Assembly (NCBI GenBank): GCA_964362365.1
Contig: CAYIEF010000001.1
Coordinates: 4,207-68,206, forward strand
Length of the DNA: 64,000 nucleotides
Direction: 5' to 3'
DNA from: an uncultured Methanosarcinales archaeon
GTDB taxonomy: Archaea > Nanobdellota > Nanobdellia > Woesearchaeales > GW2011-AR9
Both the position numbers and the translations under genes were made by a program. The number at the start of each line of letters is the position of its first letter. The stretch's first letter is position 1. Below, in pieces: positions 4,389 to 31,422 of this stretch. The notes beneath the pieces are model-generated. The model was not told the origin of the DNA, did not search any database, and saw only the letters and a list, made by a program, of their open reading frames with translations.

Positions 4389-4886
4389 TTAACTACTGAG
4401 GTCGCAATCACAACCGTGCAAACCTCCAAAAGAGACCGGTTGACAATTCTTAACCGCAGGAATTTCTTTGTAGGTAACCATCTGATCTGCGCGACTTATT
4501 TCTGGTCCCCTTTCTGTCGCATAATAACAAAACATCCTATTGCCATCGCACTGGACATCAACCGATTGCAAAGGCTGAAATGCAAATCCTTCCTCGAGGA
4601 GCCAATGTTGTTCGGTTGCAGGCTCTAGTGTTGATGGACATCTGAAGGCTTCAGGATCCTCACCTTCTTGAATTGCTTTTGCTACTTTAATCTGATCATC
4701 TGTCAAAGCCAACTGTTTCGTCTCCACAATTCGCCTCTGGATTGCTTCTCCTGCAATAGCTTCAATGTTGGTGCTGCGCTGAAGTATAAAGGCAGTAAGC
4801 CCTAAAAGGATGATAACTACAAAAACTGAAATCAAAAACCAGTGGTGCCGGGAAGGCTTTTTGTGCACTATCTTTTGCTTTGACAT
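4389..4886 (-). CDS. membrane-anchored hypothetical protein
   Basis: N-terminal TM helix (WFLISVFVVIILLGLTAFIL). Cys-containing C-terminus. Confidence 0.5.
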   Translation of the reverse strand: MSKQKIVHKKPSRHHWFLISVFVVIILLGLTAFILQRSTNIEAIAGEAIQRRIVETKQLALTDDQIKVAKAIQEGEDPEAFRCPSTLEPATEQHWLLEEGFAFQPLQSVDVQCDGNRMFCYYATERGPEISRADQMVTYKEIPAVKNCQPVSFGGLHGCDCDLSS

Positions 4887-27498: not shown

Positions 27499-28494
27499 AT
27501 GAAACCCTTAGTTGCGTTAGTTCTGTTAACTCTGCTCTTAAGCGGCTGTTCAACTGGGAAAGGAATAGCCAACGCGGAAACCTACCTCCAAGATCAAGGT
27601 ACAATAGAAGTTTACTTCTGCCCCCGTGAAGATTGTGAAGGTGTATTAATCTCTTTCTTAGATTCCGCTGAACAGTCGATCCATTGCGCCTTGTTTGATG
27701 TTGGACTGAAGTCAGTGCAAGAAAAATTATTAGAAAAAGAAAAGAGCATTGAAGTACTGATAGCTACCGATAATGATTACTTGAAGAAATTTAATCATCC
27801 TTTTGTCAAGGCCGATTCATACGGCTTAATGCACAACAAGTTCTGTGTTATTGATGGAAAGAAGATTAGCACCGGCTCTATGAATCCCACGGAAAATGAT
27901 GCGCATAAGAACAATAATAATCTGCTCTTGATAGAATCGTCAATGATAGCGCAGAATTATGAAGATGAATTCCAGGAATTATGGAGGGGAAATTTTAAGA
28001 AAGGAAATAAAGTACAAAACCCAAAAATTACGCTACATAATGGAGAAACAAAGGAGATACGTGTAGAAACATATTTCTGTCCGGAAGATGCCTGCGCGGA
28101 ACAGGTTAAAGAAGAATTGCAGAAAGCAGAAGTATCAATTCATTTCATGACCTTCTCATTCACTCATGATGGGATTGCTAATATACTTTTGTTAAAAAAT
28201 CTTGATGATCTGGAAGTCAAAGGAGCGATGGAAGTGAAACAAATTTCAGAATACTCGGAATTCAATCGCTTATTGCAAAACCATATAGATGTCCGCAAGG
28301 ATGGAAATAAGAATAATCTGCACCATAAAGTCTTCATTGTCGATGAAAAAACTGTAATTACCGGGTCGTTTAATCCTACTGCCAATGGTGATAAACATAA
28401 CGATGAAAATGTGATCATTATCGAAGACGAAGAGATTGCCAAAAGATTTGTGGAAGAGTTTTGGAAAGTGTATAGGGAAAGCTCTTCACCCTAA
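27499..28494 (+). CDS. secreted phospholipase-D-family protein with two HKD motifs (Nuc-like nuclease/PLD)
   Basis: Lipoprotein signal (LLLSGCST). HNKFCVIDGKKISTGSMNPTEND and HHKVFIVDEKTVITGSFNPTANGD are two HxK(x)4D(x)6GSxN motifs. Confidence 0.8.
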   Translation: MKPLVALVLLTLLLSGCSTGKGIANAETYLQDQGTIEVYFCPREDCEGVLISFLDSAEQSIHCALFDVGLKSVQEKLLEKEKSIEVLIATDNDYLKKFNHPFVKADSYGLMHNKFCVIDGKKISTGSMNPTENDAHKNNNNLLLIESSMIAQNYEDEFQELWRGNFKKGNKVQNPKITLHNGETKEIRVETYFCPEDACAEQVKEELQKAEVSIHFMTFSFTHDGIANILLLKNLDDLEVKGAMEVKQISEYSEFNRLLQNHIDVRKDGNKNNLHHKVFIVDEKTVITGSFNPTANGDKHNDENVIIIEDEEIAKRFVEEFWKVYRESSSP

Positions 28495-29427
28495 CCGGTC
28501 CAATATATCATGCGCATTGGTGGCAGATAGGTATTCCGTAATCTCTTTATTCTCTGCTTTTAATAAAATATTCATCCTCAATGATTTCTGTTCTTCATTG
28601 CTGACCCTGGCGAACCGGTCAACCGCAATCAAACCATAAGGATATCCTAAAAATAAAGCATCGGTGCTGTTTTCTGCTAAAAGCGGCAGGAATTCCTCGC
28701 TGCCGGTAAAACGAAAAACATGTTTTGATTTTACATGAAGCTTGACAAAGTAAGTATTATTTTCTACATAATAACTCCAACAACTAATTGGCCCTAACTT
28801 ATTCAATAGAATTAGGGGAGAATTCCCTGAAGCCGTAAACAAAGAAGACGATTTGGCTAAAGCGCATACCTGTGCGGGAAGCCTAGAAAGGTATTTTTCT
28901 TCATTGCGATAAGAAGATTCTAAGGTCCCGTCAAGCACGATAATATCAGCATCAACCTTACCGCATAAAGAAAGTTCGGCAAAGCGTCTGGCCATAGAGG
29001 CTACAGCATTTATGGAAGCTCGTTCCATGCCTATTTTGATAGTGGCATCGGTAGAAGAAATCTCCAGATCTTTTTCATCTATCAATGGTTGCTCCGTGAA
29101 AAATAATTTTGACTCATAAAAAACTTCTTCTTTCTCATATTTGGCGGCCGTCAAAAGATAGAACTCGTGTTTGTGATTTTTAATTATTTTATTATCTCGA
29201 TATACTAAAGCGCCGATTCTGATGAAACTGAGACAGAAATTTCCTGCTGAAATAATTTCTGCCTGGCCGCCGTCGATGAAAGCGATTGATCTTTGGGAAG
29301 AATGTTCTGGAATTGGTTGGAAATGGTCTTTGTTGATTTCAATTACTTTATTGTTGAAAAGAATCCTGTCTGAAATGGGAAACTGCTGGATTTTTCCGAT
29401 TAAATAGGTAGATATTTCTTTTAACAT
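28486..29427 (-). CDS. NurA-like 5'-3' nuclease domain protein
   Basis: N-terminal IAFIDGG and later IIVLDGTL resemble the NurA DG(S/T) motifs. No herA/mre11/rad50 neighbours. Confidence 0.45.
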   Translation of the reverse strand: MLKEISTYLIGKIQQFPISDRILFNNKVIEINKDHFQPIPEHSSQRSIAFIDGGQAEIISAGNFCLSFIRIGALVYRDNKIIKNHKHEFYLLTAAKYEKEEVFYESKLFFTEQPLIDEKDLEISSTDATIKIGMERASINAVASMARRFAELSLCGKVDADIIVLDGTLESSYRNEEKYLSRLPAQVCALAKSSSLFTASGNSPLILLNKLGPISCWSYYVENNTYFVKLHVKSKHVFRFTGSEEFLPLLAENSTDALFLGYPYGLIAVDRFARVSNEEQKSLRMNILLKAENKEITEYLSATNAHDILDRLG

Positions 29428-29502
29428 GGAAAAAGGAAAAGCCCTCGGCGAGTAAACAAAAGGACTACGCCTTTTGAACTCTCCTCAGTCTTTTTGATAA
29501 AA

Positions 29503-29574
29503 AGCCCCCGGGGAGATTTGAACTCCCGACCTTTACCTTACCAAGGTAACGCCATACCGCTAGGCCACGAGGGC
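29503..29574 (-). tRNA. tRNA-Thr (anticodon GGU)
   Basis: Hand-folded 72 nt: acceptor GCCCTCG/CGGGGGC (one G-U), D-arm, anticodon stem TTACC/GGTAA, loop TTGGTAA (U33, GGT, A37), 5-nt variable, T-arm GGGAG-TTCAAAT-CTCCC, discriminator U, followed by a T-run. Confidence 0.85.
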
Positions 29575-30198
29575 AACTTTAGACATATGTCTTTTATTCG
29601 AGAATCCTATTTGTTTTAAAAACCTTTCCAGCTGTTCATGGCCGTAAATTTCTAAGGTATTTCGTTTGCCGTCTCTATTACTTTTATCAACATACAAGCT
29701 AAACTCTTGAGAGAGGTGCTTCTCTAATTGGGTTATCAACGGAATACTTGCTATCTGGATAGTGATTCTTGGATATGGCCTTTTGTATTTTTTCCTATTA
29801 TCAAAAAACAAACAACCATCGGTATCAAAAATTCCCCTGATAGTTGAATACAACAATTGCTTATCTTGTTCTATTATCAAAGGAATCTTGACCGTCCTTG
29901 TTTTGATTCCAGGTAGAAAACCCAAAGATAACAAGAAATCAGCAAGTTCTGGAGAGTAAAAACGAAGCTGTAAAGTATTTTCATCTTTTCTGTAACAGAG
30001 TGATGGTTTTGCGGAAGGAAAATATTTCTTAACAATGGAAACTAAATGAAATTTCAGATAATCTTCATCGAGAATAGCATTACCTGTTACGCCTACTACG
30101 ATGCCTTTTTTACCGTATCTACTAAGGTAACCATCGCCAATAAACGCACCTACTAATTCGCACAATTCGCTATTGAGTTTTAACATTTCTTGTTCCAT
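29560..30198 (-). CDS. free-standing double-motif LAGLIDADG homing endonuclease
   Basis: LVGAFIGDGYLS (motif 1) and IRGIFDTDGCLFF (motif 2). 212 aa. 3' end overlaps the 5' end of tRNA-Thr by about 15 nt. Confidence 0.8.
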   Translation of the reverse strand: MEQEMLKLNSELCELVGAFIGDGYLSRYGKKGIVVGVTGNAILDEDYLKFHLVSIVKKYFPSAKPSLCYRKDENTLQLRFYSPELADFLLSLGFLPGIKTRTVKIPLIIEQDKQLLYSTIRGIFDTDGCLFFDNRKKYKRPYPRITIQIASIPLITQLEKHLSQEFSLYVDKSNRDGKRNTLEIYGHEQLERFLKQIGFSNKRHMSKVALVA

Positions 30199-30561
30199 TT
30201 TTTCACAACCTCAAAAATGGAATGTAGAATGTTTAAAAATCTTAGCTTGATTTGCTGGCTTAAATATTCCTATTTCGACAACCATAAAAGTATTTGAATC
30301 ATTTCTTTACAAAAATGCCAAGTGAATTAAGTCTGGATTATATCTGTTATTTGGAACAAAAGTGGAAGAGCTATACGCAAGTACGACCCTTGGGATCCGC
30401 GAAAGAGAATTCTTGAACAAGATATAAGAGATACTTTAGATGACATGAAAAATGAAACAAAAGTTGGAATAATGCTCTATGATCTTTTTGCCGGCCTTCA
30501 TTCGAAAGCTGAGGGTGAATTACAAGCTTACAAACGGTTTCTGCTCAGAAGATAAAAAAAG

Positions 30562-30703
30562 TGCGGGGAAGGAGATTTGAACTCCCGAATCCACTAAGGA
30601 ACAGGATACCTTCCTTTTTCAGCAGATTTAGTCTTCATGCTGGTCTTAAGTTTCGCCGAGCTTACGCTCACCTGCGCATTTGGCCAGGCTTTGCTATCCC
30701 CGC
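30562..30703 (-). tRNA. tRNA-Leu (anticodon UAA) interrupted by insertions (about 142 nt; intron-containing)
   Basis: Acceptor GCGGGGA/TCCCCGC with discriminator A. Leu-type D-loop GCAAAGCCTGGCCAAATGC. Canonical anticodon loop CTTAAGA. T-arm GGGAG-TTCAAAT-CTCCT. A 20-nt insert (TGAGCGTAAGCTCGGCGAAA) precedes the anticodon loop and an extra ~37 nt lie in the variable region. Confidence 0.55.
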
Positions 30704-30810
30704 ATAGGCAAAAACTAAAACAAGCCTTTCATTTATAAAATATTCCGTTTTATTGTTTTCATATATACTATATCAATAATCATTATAAAATAGATTTCCT
30801 TTCTAGCTTT

Positions 30811-31422
30811 ATGGTAAAAGTCCAGGTATTCGACACTCTGGAGAAAGCAGTAATAAGATTAGATTCTCTTTTTCATAAAAATAAGCTGGTCTGGGTAGCT
30901 ATGACCAGTGAGTTTAAAGCTCGAGAAAAAATGTATAGAAAAAGCGCAGCCTATCAAAAGCAACATGGCACGGATCTTACTGCGCCGCTTACCATGGAGG
31001 AAACATTTGTCTTGGGAGCAAATGTTGGCAAAGGGGAAGAAGTAAGCTCTTTCCCATATTTAATCGCGCAGGGAATCAGCGGATACGGATTTTACCTGAA
31101 TCTGATGGATCTAGATACTGCTGAATTTCACGGCCCTTATGATTCTATCACGTCTTTAGTAGAAGCCACACGCCAGACTAACAATAGGAAGAATTATTCA
31201 CACTTGGGCATAAAAGTATCTCCTATTTATTATACGGTCAGGCAGCCTTTTACGTACTCGGAATCAGAGAAAAATGATCTCAAAAAAGCGATGGGGTTTT
31301 CCAGTTTAACTTCAGAAAGCCAGGAAACTCTTGAAAAATACTTAGATAACTATGTAGAACGCTGCCTCAGTACAGAAGAAATACAAGAATTCGTGAGGGG
31401 GCATACTAAATTCTTAAATTGA
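30811..31422 (+). CDS. hypothetical protein
   Basis: 203-aa ORF. No family recognised. Confidence 0.45.
   Translation: MVKVQVFDTLEKAVIRLDSLFHKNKLVWVAMTSEFKAREKMYRKSAAYQKQHGTDLTAPLTMEETFVLGANVGKGEEVSSFPYLIAQGISGYGFYLNLMDLDTAEFHGPYDSITSLVEATRQTNNRKNYSHLGIKVSPIYYTVRQPFTYSESEKNDLKKAMGFSSLTSESQETLEKYLDNYVERCLSTEEIQEFVRGHTKFLN

What the first reader, a model, noticed from the sequence alone, without database searches (positions are those of the whole stretch)
29503..30198. Free-standing LAGLIDADG homing endonuclease whose 3' end overlaps tRNA-Thr, between two tRNA genes
A 212-aa double-LAGLIDADG enzyme (LVGAFIGDGYLS and IRGIFDTDGCLFF). In archaea such enzymes are normally intron- or intein-encoded. 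Here the ORF is not inside the tRNA-Thr gene. Its last about 15 nt overlap the tRNA 5' end on the same strand, and it lies 360 nt from the insertion-bearing tRNA-Leu. Decayed ORF fragments lie in 30200-30560. This suggests a former intron or mobile element that invaded the tRNA locus, or an endonuclease recruited for another role such as maturase-like activity.
Basis: partly seen in the sequence, partly recalled or inferred. Interest (0 to 1): 0.55.

Follow-up and report, generated by a model that had tools for sequence, protein, structure and literature searches.

The report
Homing endonuclease cassette targeting tRNA-Thr genes
The ORF is an intact free-standing LAGLIDADG homing endonuclease from a previously undescribed family of DPANN archaea that almost always sits against a threonine tRNA gene, apparently spreading by overwriting the resident tRNA-Thr gene while carrying its own replacement copy.

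Summary
A 212-aa double-LAGLIDADG ORF (29560-30198, minus strand) ends 15 nt inside tRNA-Thr(GGU) (29503-29574). It folds confidently like the archaeal homing endonucleases I-Tsp061I and I-DmoI, and both catalytic Asp are invariant.

There are 338 relatives in DPANN species genomes. Of 81 loci read (80 fetched plus the window), 79 could be assessed: 78 abut a tRNA-Thr gene (GGU, UGU or CGU) and one lies about 200 nt away. The arrangements fall into three types that track endonuclease clades.

Many loci have the cassette (promoter, endonuclease gene, complete tRNA-Thr) inside an older, broken tRNA-Thr gene. The two leftover acceptor halves pair with each other, not with the inner tRNA.

Three syntenic relatives of the window are empty sites: same flanks and tRNA-Thr, no endonuclease. 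They define a 685-nt insertion (29575-30259). Occupied alleles have anticodon stem TTACC/GGTAA; empty alleles have CGTCC/GGACG.

The gene is under strong purifying selection (dN/dS about 0.06). In two of three genome pairs it is less diverged at synonymous sites than its neighbours.

Best reading: an active mobile endonuclease cassette that homes into tRNA-Thr genes and supplies a replacement. It is not a former intron or a maturase. No cleavage was tested.

The parts
29560..30198 (-). Free-standing single-chain LAGLIDADG homing endonuclease gene, 212 aa, short form of the family.
   Evidence: ORF list. Pfam LAGLIDADG_3 at E 1.2e-7. D22 and D127 of the two LAGLIDADG motifs are invariant in 34 homologues. 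AF2 model has pLDDT 93.2 and two alpha-beta-beta-alpha-beta-beta-alpha halves. Best PDB match is I-Tsp061I (TM 0.71/0.74), followed by I-DmoI and I-AniI. dN/dS is 0.06-0.07 against relatives that are 85-90% identical.
29503..29574 (-). tRNA-Thr(GGU), intron-less, abutting the endonuclease ORF. Positions 1-15 also encode the ORF's last four codons and its stop. It carries the endonuclease-linked anticodon stem TTACC/GGTAA.
   Evidence: ARAGORN and Rfam. In alignment A2, 4 occupied alleles have TTACC/GGTAA and 3 empty alleles have CGTCC/GGACG, while D-arm, T-arm and acceptor variants mix across the two classes. The C-terminal tail read from the tRNA differs among close homologues (VALVA versus VPS), so the overlap is incidental.
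29575..30259 (-). Segment present in the window but absent from syntenic empty sites: about 685 nt holding the endonuclease promoter and ORF. It replaces about 30 nt of spacer between the old tRNA TATA box and tRNA position +1.
   Evidence: blastn of empty site L094 against the window and L081. Homology runs to L094:515 / window 30260 and resumes at L094:545 / window 29574. Sequences were also read directly.
30230..30241 (-). TATA-like element (GATTTTTAAACA) about 35 nt upstream of the endonuclease ATG; the presumed own promoter.
   Evidence: Read from sequence. The equivalent TATTTAAAC / TATATAAA element sits at the same distance in relatives. Promoter function is inferred, not tested.
30260..30270 (-). 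Former tRNA-Thr promoter TATA box (GGAATATTTAA). This is the last stretch of left-flank homology with the empty sites; it is now upstream of the endonuclease gene.
   Evidence: In empty sites L091 and L094 the same GGAATATTTAAATAAAATC lies about 30 nt upstream of tRNA-Thr +1. Coordinates.
29487..29502 (-). Short spacer with a T-run after tRNA-Thr (the cassette's right end and terminator).
   Evidence: Read from sequence. Conserved in L085.
29440..29486 (-). Remnant of the 3' part of an earlier resident tRNA-Thr: end of the 37/38 intron and anticodon-stem 3' strand, T-arm with a shortened T-loop intron, and acceptor 3' half CGAGGGC. It lies between the live tRNA-Thr and the NurA-like gene.
   Evidence: GAGGAGAGTTCAAAA[GGCGTAGTCCTTTTGTTTA]CTCGCCGAGGGCT matches the 3' part of the empty-site tRNA-Thr of L089, which has a T-loop intron. 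The same remnant is present in L085. Coordinates.

Best explanation
The ORF encodes an active, free-standing LAGLIDADG homing endonuclease. It belongs to a compact selfish cassette (own promoter, endonuclease gene, tRNA-Thr gene) that is specialised for the tRNA-Thr genes of DPANN archaea.

Proposed mechanism:
1. The enzyme makes a double-strand break in a tRNA-Thr gene that lacks the cassette. The cut most likely falls between the D-stem and the anticodon loop, about positions 16-37. The shared G35/U36 of all Thr anticodons would give the amino-acid specificity.
2. Repair copies the cassette from an occupied allele.
3. The cassette overwrites the middle or 5' part of the resident gene and leaves its ends as fragments.
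4. The essential tRNA function is kept because the cassette brings an intact tRNA-Thr.
5. That copy is presumably not cleavable, because its anticodon stem differs (TTACC/GGTAA in the window's clade) or is interrupted by an intron in many relatives.

In the window, the endonuclease gene was inserted between the old tRNA-Thr promoter and tRNA position +1, so the ORF runs 15 nt into the tRNA. A fragment of a still older tRNA-Thr remains downstream.

Shown: the family-wide linkage to tRNA-Thr, the empty sites, the nested fragments, purifying selection, and lower synonymous divergence than the neighbours. Inferred: cleavage activity, the position of the target, immunity of the linked tRNA, and co-transcription with the tRNA.
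For: 1. Enzyme. Both catalytic Asp are invariant. The confident model matches I-Tsp061I and I-DmoI. dN/dS is 0.06-0.07.

2. Linkage. There are 338 relatives in GTDB species genomes. Of 81 loci read (80 fetched plus the window), 79 could be assessed; L076 is cut by the contig end and L080 starts at the endonuclease gene. 78 abut a tRNA-Thr gene, and L067 has one about 200 nt upstream. The three arrangements correspond to endonuclease clades: the CGU clade, a mixed GGU/UGU clade, and the GGU clades. One MAG has a copy at each of its three tRNA-Thr isoacceptor genes (L018, L032, L079).

3. Nesting. In long-form loci the order is: old tRNA positions 1-15, TATA element, endonuclease gene, complete tRNA-Thr, old tRNA from about position 36 to 72. 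The old halves pair with each other: L069 GCCACAG/CTGTGGC, L046 and L040 GCCTCTA/TAGAGGC, L016 GCTCAGA/TCTGGGC. They do not pair with the inner tRNA. Over 11 loci, 34 of 44 variable acceptor positions are Watson-Crick between old halves, against 14-16 for old-with-inner and 22.8 on shuffling (P about 0.001). Different old acceptor sequences that are each still self-complementary argue for repeated recent insertions.

4. Empty sites. L089, L091 and L094 share the window's flanks and have no endonuclease gene. In a tree of the flanking NurA-like gene, L081 (occupied) is sister to L094 (empty).

5. The anticodon-stem allele segregates perfectly with occupancy, 4 against 3. The TTACC stem and an intron within the stem recur next to endonuclease genes that are only 38-55% identical, including in Aenigmatarchaeota.

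6. Synonymous difference for the endonuclease gene is 0.32-0.49, against 0.60-0.85 for flanking genes, in the pairs L081-L002 and L081-window.

7. About 7 of 80 copies carry in-frame stops, as expected for a homing-endonuclease life cycle.
Against: - No cleavage assay exists, and the target position is inferred.
- Very strong purifying selection and clade-specific architectures also fit long vertical residence or a host function.
- In one of three genome pairs (L081-L085) the endonuclease gene is as diverged at synonymous sites as its neighbours.
- The three empty sites come from different species (NurA-like protein 64-70% identical), not from the same population.
- In the window the left junction lies in the tRNA promoter, not in a recognisable tRNA 5' fragment.
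- The window's tRNA-Thr differs from an empty allele (L091) only by three compensated base pairs and intron loss, so it could still be cleavable.
- In L024 the inner and old anticodon arms are nearly identical.
- Homology arms of 15-37 nt are short for recombinational repair.
- Taxon labels of the MAGs are too unreliable to prove horizontal transfer.
Confidence: 0.68

Rival explanations
1. Domesticated LAGLIDADG protein: a host factor, for example a WhiA-like DNA-binding regulator or a factor for expression or processing of tRNA-Thr. It would be inherited vertically with the tRNA-Thr locus and no longer be mobile.
For: dN/dS is 0.06-0.07 over synonymous distances of 0.4-1.4. Architecture is constant within large clades. 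A conserved motif CACYGGWMA lies 48-111 nt (mostly 48-80) upstream of the ATG in 14 loci, against 0.4 expected, which could be a regulatory site. WhiA appears among the fold matches at rank 15. Long forms carry an extra N-terminal helical domain.
Against: Syntenic relatives do without it. Both catalytic Asp are invariant, whereas domesticated LAGLIDADG proteins such as WhiA typically lose them (my knowledge). About 9% of copies are decaying. Broken resident tRNA-Thr genes surround the cassette. Synonymous divergence is lower than in the neighbours for two pairs. The gene sits on either strand and on either side of the tRNA, which argues against a fixed operon.
Confidence: 0.17
2. Stranded relic of an intron-encoded endonuclease. 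The ORF once sat in a bulge-helix-bulge or group I intron of a tRNA, and the intron was lost or rearranged, leaving the ORF beside the gene.
For: The nearest solved structures are archaeal intron-encoded enzymes. tRNA-Thr genes of relatives are full of introns. In the CGU clade the endonuclease gene lies between a tRNA and a tRNA 3' fragment.
Against: In every architecture a complete tRNA-Thr exists without the ORF inside it. The outer fragments lack positions 16-35 and so cannot be exons of a functional gene. No RNA family matches the flanks. The ORF has its own TATA-like element. The ORF is intact and under selection.
Confidence: 0.08
3. Cargo or footprint of an integrase-type integrative element that targets tRNA genes, with the endonuclease as a passenger.
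For: tRNA genes are classic integration sites, and duplicated tRNA 3' parts are the usual footprint of such elements (my knowledge). Duplicated 3' fragments are seen.
Against: The insert is only about 0.7-1.2 kb and contains nothing but the endonuclease gene, with or without a tRNA. No integrase lies in the flanks. 5' fragments ending at position 15/16 and loss of positions 16-35 do not fit att-site recombination.
Confidence: 0.04

Closest known systems
I-Tsp061I, I-DmoI, I-PorI (archaeal rRNA-intron-encoded single-chain LAGLIDADG homing endonucleases)
   Same: Same fold and size: TM 0.71/0.74 to I-Tsp061I (PDB 2dch) and 0.6-0.75 to I-DmoI. Two LAGLIDADG helices, each with a catalytic Asp. Archaeal host.
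   Different: Those enzymes are encoded inside bulge-helix-bulge introns of 23S or 16S rRNA genes and depend on splicing to be harmless. This one is free-standing, has its own promoter-like element, and is linked to tRNA-Thr genes. It appears to avoid harm by carrying a replacement tRNA rather than by splicing. Sequence identity is only 15-18%.
Phage T4 SegB, a free-standing GIY-YIG homing endonuclease in the tRNA gene cluster
   Same: A free-standing endonuclease gene embedded among tRNA genes. It cuts the tRNA gene region of a relative lacking it and is inherited together with flanking tRNA markers (my knowledge of Brok-Volchanskaya et al. 2008; SegB and tRNA loci also appear in PMC13096335, listed).
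   Different: Different nuclease family, and phage rather than cellular chromosome. SegB has no specificity for one amino-acid family of tRNAs, and no nested broken target gene or linked replacement gene is reported.
tRNA-targeting integrative elements of archaea and bacteria (tyrosine-integrase type)
   Same: They target tRNA genes, carry a partial tRNA copy that restores the gene, and leave displaced tRNA fragments (my knowledge).
   Different: No integrase here, and the element is 10-50 times smaller. The 5' junction at D-loop position 15/16 and loss of the anticodon arm of the old gene do not look like att recombination.
Synthetic cleave-and-rescue / home-and-rescue gene drives (ClvR, HomeR)
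   Same: Same logic: a nuclease destroys an essential gene and a tightly linked, cleavage-resistant copy of that gene rescues carriers (my knowledge).
   Different: Those are engineered Cas9 systems in insects. Here it would be a natural protein-only system in archaea, and resistance of the linked tRNA is inferred, not shown.
WhiA (domesticated LAGLIDADG transcription factor of Gram-positive bacteria)
   Same: Double LAGLIDADG scaffold plus an additional helical DNA-binding domain, as in the long forms here. It is a fold match at rank 15.
   Different: WhiA has lost the catalytic residues and is a universal vertically inherited gene (my knowledge). This family keeps both Asp, is absent from close relatives, and shows decaying copies.

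Membership tests
LAGLIDADG homing endonucleases (single-chain, two-motif) | Two LAGLIDADG motifs, each ending in a conserved acidic catalytic residue | tested here: met
   The motifs are LVGAFIGDGYLS and IRGIFDTDGCLFF. D22 and D127 are invariant in 34 homologues. Pfam LAGLIDADG_3 matches above its cut-off.
LAGLIDADG homing endonucleases (single-chain, two-motif) | Pseudo-symmetric double alpha-beta-beta-alpha-beta-beta-alpha fold with a beta-sheet DNA saddle | tested here: met
   AF2 model with pLDDT 93.2 and pTM 0.91. Foldseek against PDB gives I-Tsp061I at E 6e-11 and TM 0.71/0.74, then I-DmoI, I-AniI and I-SceI. This is a predicted, not a solved, structure.
LAGLIDADG homing endonucleases (single-chain, two-motif) | Site-specific double-strand cleavage of a long (about 20 bp) target, leaving 4-nt 3' overhangs | not testable with these tools
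   Needs an in vitro cleavage assay on endonuclease-free tRNA-Thr gene DNA.
LAGLIDADG homing endonucleases (single-chain, two-motif) | Presence/absence polymorphism at a defined site in related genomes (homing site filled or empty) | tested here: met
   The window, L081-L087 and L002 are filled. L089, L091 and L094 are empty, with the same flanks.
Intron-encoded homing endonuclease (group I or archaeal bulge-helix-bulge intron) | ORF lies within an intron that interrupts a host gene and is removed by splicing | tested here: not met
   The tRNA-Thr is complete (72 nt, 66.9 bits) with the ORF outside it. No intron RNA family matches within 29400-30900 even at E 10. Across 80 relatives the ORF is never inside a functional tRNA.
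Intein-encoded homing endonuclease | Endonuclease domain embedded in an in-frame intein with splicing blocks | tested here: not met
   The 212-aa ORF is the endonuclease core alone. Only weak partial matches to intein-containing proteins were found, and there is no host protein frame.
Free-standing homing endonuclease genes (as in T4 seg/mob genes) | Own expression signals; located in an intergenic region next to the gene that carries the target; flanking markers co-converted | tested here: inconclusive
   A TATA-like element lies about 35 nt upstream of the ATG, in the window and in relatives. An allele difference in the adjacent tRNA segregates with occupancy. Lower synonymous divergence than the flanks in 2 of 3 pairs. 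Promoter activity and co-conversion are inferred, not observed.
Cleave-and-rescue type selfish element (nuclease plus resistant copy of its essential target) | The element carries a functional copy of the target gene and the resident copy is destroyed | tested here: met
   A complete inner tRNA-Thr is flanked by the two ends of a broken tRNA-Thr whose acceptor halves pair with each other. L024's old fragment keeps the GGU anticodon loop. In the window only a 3' remnant is left (29440-29486).
Cleave-and-rescue type selfish element (nuclease plus resistant copy of its essential target) | The linked copy is resistant to the nuclease | not testable with these tools
   Only indirect evidence: a different anticodon stem in linked versus free alleles and introns inside the anticodon stem of many linked tRNAs.

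The most novel reading that the evidence does not exclude
A natural 'home-and-rescue' gene drive in archaea. A protein-only endonuclease family destroys an essential tRNA-Thr gene and replaces it with its own cleavage-resistant allele. The odd features of the linked tRNAs (altered anticodon stems, introns inside the anticodon stem, C33) would be immunity devices. That would be direct evidence for the old idea that interrupting tRNA genes protects them from mobile DNA. The ORF-tRNA overlap could also throttle endonuclease expression, because 5' processing of the tRNA would remove the stop codon from the mRNA.
Probability: 0.4. Interest if true: 0.85.

Novelty: new variant of a known kind. Interest (0 to 1): 0.72.

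Why it matters
Homing endonucleases are known to persist by hiding in self-splicing introns or inteins, or, in phages, as free-standing genes next to their targets. Here a cellular, free-standing family appears to use a third way of being harmless: it brings a spare copy of the essential gene it breaks.

- It would add tRNA-Thr genes of DPANN archaea to the short list of natural homing targets.
- It offers about 340 natural enzyme variants with related roughly 20-bp targets for specificity studies.
- It gives a concrete, testable case for why archaeal tRNA genes collect introns at unusual positions.
- It provides a natural counterpart to engineered cleave-and-rescue drives.
- For annotation, it explains why these ORFs run into tRNA genes and why tRNA fragments litter these loci.

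Tried and rejected
- **RNA families.** Rfam at gathering score over the window, and at E up to 10 over 29400-30900, found only the tRNA-Thr. There is no group I intron and nothing else credible.
- **tRNA-Leu.** ARAGORN with introns allowed miscalled the tRNA-Leu as tRNA-Ala with a 58-nt intron. I rejected this in favour of a two-intron tRNA-Leu(UAA), from comparison with L091, L081 and L094.
- **Sequence search of PDB.** Only a marginal I-AniI hit (E 0.21); the fold search was needed.
- **Replaced 3' half.** My first idea, that the window's tRNA-Thr 3' half had been replaced (because of the T5.G68 wobble), was dropped. Empty site L091 has the same 3' half, so it is a point difference.
- **Promoter inside the ORF's 3' end.** The AATAAAAG in the conserved SNKRH codons lies too close (-24 to -17) to the tRNA start to be convincing. 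This is left open.
- **Fragment pairing.** Automatic pairing of 5' and 3' fragments mixed up intron-split live tRNAs with remnants, so I curated the table by hand.
- **Viral contigs.** Only distant (25-32% identity) LAGLIDADG genes turned up, so there is no sign of a viral vector.
- **Other protein libraries.** Pfam and NCBIfam give no name for the N-terminal extension of the long forms.
- **Upstream motif.** The conserved motif does not convincingly resemble the tRNA-Thr anticodon region, so 'operator mimics target' is not claimed.
- **Literature.** Four full-text searches and one paper read found no description of this family or of a tRNA-Thr link.
Full report
**1. What is in the window**

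It matches Pfam LAGLIDADG_3 at E 1.2e-7, above the curated cut-off.

ARAGORN and Rfam both call a 72-nt tRNA-Thr(GGU) at 29503-29574 on the same strand. The ORF's last four codons and its TAG stop are tRNA positions 1-15.

363 nt upstream of the ORF start lies a 146-nt tRNA-Leu(UAA) gene (about 30562-30707). Neither ARAGORN nor Rfam recognises it. By hand, and by comparison with relatives, it reads as three exons and two introns.

Directly downstream of tRNA-Thr is a NurA-like gene (28486-29427).

**2. The protein**

An AlphaFold model built on 34 homologues is confident (pLDDT 93.2, pTM 0.91). It shows two alpha-beta-beta-alpha-beta-beta-alpha halves.

Its best solved-structure matches are the archaeal intron-encoded I-Tsp061I (E 6e-11, TM 0.71/0.74), I-DmoI, I-AniI and intein endonuclease domains. 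Plain sequence search of the PDB barely sees this.

In the alignment of 34 homologues, the Asp of both LAGLIDADG motifs (D22, D127) and about 25 other positions are invariant. Against relatives that are 85-90% identical, dN/dS is 0.06-0.07. It looks like a working nuclease, not a relic.

**3. The family and its link to tRNA-Thr**

A protein search gives 132 hits down to E 1e-133. All named ones are from DPANN archaea. They come in two sizes: about 210 aa like the window, and about 335 aa with an N-terminal extension.

In the alignment, the tails after the conserved C-terminal IGFSNKRHLxK[IV] looked like translated tRNA sequence, so I fetched loci. A scan of one genome per species found 338 relatives (Woese-, Pace-, Nano-, Iain-, Micr- and Aenigmatarchaeota, plus a few evidently mislabelled bins), and I read 80 of them.

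Using ARAGORN with introns, a tRNA-Thr profile and direct reading, 79 of the 81 loci (80 fetched plus the window) could be assessed. 78 of them have the endonuclease gene abutting a tRNA-Thr gene:

- **Type A (about 45 loci, including the window).** Endonuclease gene, then tRNA-Thr(GGU) on the same strand, overlapping the ORF end by 11-15 nt.
- **Type B (25 loci).** tRNA-Thr(GGU or UGU) on the other strand, tail to tail with the endonuclease gene.
- **Type C (10-11 loci).** A complete tRNA-Thr(CGU), then the endonuclease gene, then only a tRNA 3' fragment.
- **Exceptions.** L067 has a tRNA-Thr(UGU)-like gene about 200 nt upstream. L076 is cut by the contig end. L080 starts at the endonuclease gene.

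A neighbour-joining tree shows that these arrangements correspond to endonuclease clades. One MAG (JBAZQI01) has a copy at each of its three tRNA-Thr isoacceptor genes (L018, L032, L079).

The link to tRNA-Thr is thus the defining property of the family. Chance adjacency is out of the question, since a genome has about three tRNA-Thr genes among roughly a thousand genes.

**4. The cassette sits inside broken tRNA-Thr genes**

In the long-form type A loci the order is:

1. An intact-looking tRNA promoter.
2. tRNA positions 1-15 (...TAGCTCAG).
3. 4-6 nt, then CACAAAATATATAAA.
4. The endonuclease ORF.
5. A complete tRNA-Thr(GGU).
6. A short spacer.
7. A tRNA 3' part starting near position 36 or 44-48.

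The outer 5' and 3' pieces belong to one another. Their acceptor halves are complementary: L069 GCCACAG/CTGTGGC; L046 and L040 GCCTCTA/TAGAGGC; L016 GCTCAGA/TCTGGGC; L025 GCCTCTG/CAGAGGC. The inner tRNA has a different acceptor stem. L024's outer piece still shows the TTGGTAA anticodon loop, so the broken gene was itself tRNA-Thr(GGU).

Type C has the same left junction at position 15/16, then a TATA element, the complete tRNA-Thr(CGU), the endonuclease gene and a 3' fragment. Type B has a complete tRNA, the endonuclease gene in reverse, then a 3' fragment whose acceptor half does not fit the complete tRNA.

Over 11 curated loci, the variable acceptor positions 4-7 of the old 5' and old 3' pieces form 34 of 44 Watson-Crick pairs. 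Old-with-inner gives 14-16, and shuffling among loci gives 22.8 (P about 0.001).

Unselected fragments from a single ancient insertion would not stay complementary while differing between loci. This pattern argues for repeated, fairly recent insertions into functional resident genes. L055 even carries a stack of successive 3' remnants.

**5. Empty sites for the window itself**

A metagenome scan with the NurA-like neighbour returned seven loci, none with the endonuclease gene. Three keep the window's neighbourhood:

- **L091.** tRNA-Leu(UAA) with the same two introns, the small 110-aa gene on the other strand, a TATA box GGAATATTTAAATAAAATC, tRNA-Thr(GGU), and further on the NurA-like gene.
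- **L094.** tRNA-Leu, small gene, TATA box, tRNA-Thr, NADAR, NurA-like gene.
- **L089.** Small gene, tRNA-Thr, NurA-like gene.

Occupied relatives are L081-L084 (same left flank as the window), L085-L087 (different left flank) and L002.

blastn places the difference at window 29575-30259: 685 nt present in the window, about 30 nt in the empty sites (coordinates). Left-flank homology ends right after the old tRNA TATA box (30260-30270). On the right, the ORF abuts tRNA position +1.

In a tree of the NurA-like protein, occupied L081 is sister to empty L094.

Downstream of the window's tRNA-Thr, at 29440-29486, lies a remnant of a still earlier tRNA-Thr 3' part. It includes a shortened T-loop intron like the one in L089, and L085 shares it.

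**6. Hints about target and immunity**

Aligning the four occupied and three empty tRNA-Thr(GGU) alleles of this clade shows that D-arm, T-arm and acceptor variants are shared across the two classes. The window and L091 are otherwise identical.

The anticodon stem, however, is TTACC/GGTAA in all occupied alleles and CGTCC/GGACG in all empty ones. That is three compensated base pairs.

The TTACC stem, usually split by an intron after position 29 with a conserved CCGCWAAA 3' end, recurs next to endonuclease genes only 38-55% identical to the window's, including in Aenigmatarchaeota. This suggests the tRNA travels with the endonuclease gene.

Three further points fit together: positions 16-35 are lost from the broken resident genes; the best-preserved remnants start at position about 36; and G35/U36 is shared by all Thr anticodons. 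From these I infer that the enzyme recognises the D-stem to anticodon-loop part of the gene and that the linked allele is resistant. This is inference only. L024, where the inner and old anticodon arms are almost the same, does not fit neatly.

**7. Age relative to the host**

| Pair | Gene | Synonymous difference |
|---|---|---|
| L081 vs L002 | endonuclease | 0.32 |
| L081 vs L002 | PLDc_2 | 0.60 |
| L081 vs L002 | NurA-like | 0.85 |
| L081 vs window | endonuclease | 0.49 |
| L081 vs window | six flanking genes | 0.60-0.75 |
| L081 vs L085 | endonuclease | 0.62 |
| L081 vs L085 | flanking genes | 0.62-0.76 |

The endonuclease protein is 85-90% identical where the neighbours are 65-82%.

Two of the three pairs therefore suggest that the gene moved between lineages after they split; the third does not. 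About 7 of 80 copies have in-frame stops, which fits the usual cycle of invasion, fixation and decay.

**8. How it most likely works, and rivals**

*Best reading (confidence about 0.68).* This is a free-standing homing endonuclease cassette specialised on tRNA-Thr genes. It stays harmless not by splicing but by bringing an intact tRNA-Thr. In the window it is an apparently active copy inserted between the old tRNA promoter and the tRNA.

The ORF-tRNA overlap is a by-product of that junction. Close homologues read into the tRNA in a different frame (VALVA versus VPS).

The old promoter now lies upstream of the endonuclease gene (window, and for relatives). Co-transcription with the tRNA is therefore plausible but untested.

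*Rivals.*
- A domesticated host factor (0.17). It is favoured by the very low dN/dS and by a conserved upstream motif. It is disfavoured by the empty sites, the retained catalytic residues, the decaying copies and the nested fragments.
- A stranded intron ORF (0.08).
- An integrase-element footprint (0.04).

**9. Comparison with what is known**

By fold and motifs this is a member of the single-chain LAGLIDADG endonucleases. It is not intron- or intein-encoded; both were tested and not met.

Functionally it is closest to free-standing phage endonucleases such as T4 SegB, which sits in a tRNA cluster. It also resembles tRNA-targeting integrative elements (tRNA fragments as footprints) and engineered cleave-and-rescue drives (the logic).

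Four full-text searches and one paper on archaeal group I introns, which covers rRNA introns only, found no description of this family or of a tRNA-Thr link. That is not proof of absence from the literature.

I class it as a new variant of a known kind.

**10. Limits**

- No biochemistry was done.
- Only 80 of 338 relatives were read.
- MAG taxonomy labels are unreliable.
- The empty sites come from other species.
- Synonymous sites in the flanking genes are near saturation.
- The window itself lacks a recognisable 5' tRNA fragment.

Noticed in passing
window 30562-30707 (-): tRNA-Leu(UAA) gene of about 146 nt that ARAGORN and Rfam do not call. It reads as exon 1 (30671-30707, through anticodon-stem G30), an intron of about 19 nt, exon 2 ACTTAAG (30645-30651), an intron of about 37 nt at 37/38, and exon 3 (30562-30607). 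L091 has the same two introns (91% identity over 192 nt). L081 has introns in the D-loop and at 37/38 instead, and L094 at 37/38 and in the T-loop. Intron positions therefore turn over quickly between close relatives.
   Followed up: partly
window 30288-30555 (+): Frameshifted copy (frame +1 to +2 near 30380) of a conserved gene of about 110 aa with no Pfam match. It is intact in L081 (113 aa), L091 and L094, and present at endonuclease-free sites too. It is either a host pseudogene or a sequencing error, and is not part of the mobile element.
   Followed up: yes
L002-L010, L014, L028, L029, L031, L047, L055, L058; 48-111 nt upstream of the endonuclease ATG: A conserved motif CAC[CT]GG[AT][AC]A (for example CGCACTGGACA), sometimes in tandem, lies just upstream of the endonuclease TATA element in 14 loci, against about 0.4 expected. 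It occurs in both type A and type B arrangements. In the window it has decayed (GCCAGCAAATCAAG at 30241-30259). It could be an operator for autoregulation or a cassette-end signature.
   Followed up: partly
L003-L014, L022, L033, L058, L070, L074, L075 (tRNA-Thr next to the endonuclease gene): These tRNA-Thr(GGU) genes carry two to four introns. One lies inside the 5' strand of the anticodon stem (after position 28 or 29) and has a conserved 3' end CCGC[AT]AA. Some have T-loop introns (L013, L058). ARAGORN misses or misnames most of them (as Phe, Trp, Gly, His, Asp).
   Followed up: partly
L069 6607-6678; L026 1273-1345; L030 6610-6682: The endonuclease-linked tRNA-Thr(GGU) genes have C at position 33 of the anticodon loop (TCGGTAA, ACGGTAA), where U33 is almost universal. 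This may be a resistance change or just a local oddity.
   Followed up: no
P0077, P0082-P0112 (long forms); model of P0082: Long-form relatives (about 335 aa) have an N-terminal extension of about 125 residues. It is confidently predicted as an all-helical, HTH-like module (pLDDT about 90) and has no Pfam or NCBIfam match. It is probably an extra DNA-binding domain. The window's protein lacks it.
   Followed up: partly
L018, L032 (contig JBAZQI010000008.1) and L079 (JBAZQI010000005.1): One MAG carries three family members from different clades, one at each tRNA-Thr isoacceptor gene (GGU, UGU, CGU). Every threonine tRNA gene of that genome seen here is occupied.
   Followed up: partly
L055 about 4700-4860: Two further copies of a unit of about 65 nt ending in a tRNA 3' acceptor fragment (…GCTCGGCAGAGGC, …GCTCGGCCAAGACC) follow the live tRNA-Thr. 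They look like stacked footprints of successive insertions.
   Followed up: no
L081 4789-5184 and L094 677-1123, compared with window 29428-29502: A NADAR-domain gene lies between tRNA-Thr and the NurA-like gene in L081-L084 and L094, but not in the window, L085 or L089. The tRNA-Thr downstream flank is a second hot spot of gene gain or loss.
   Followed up: no
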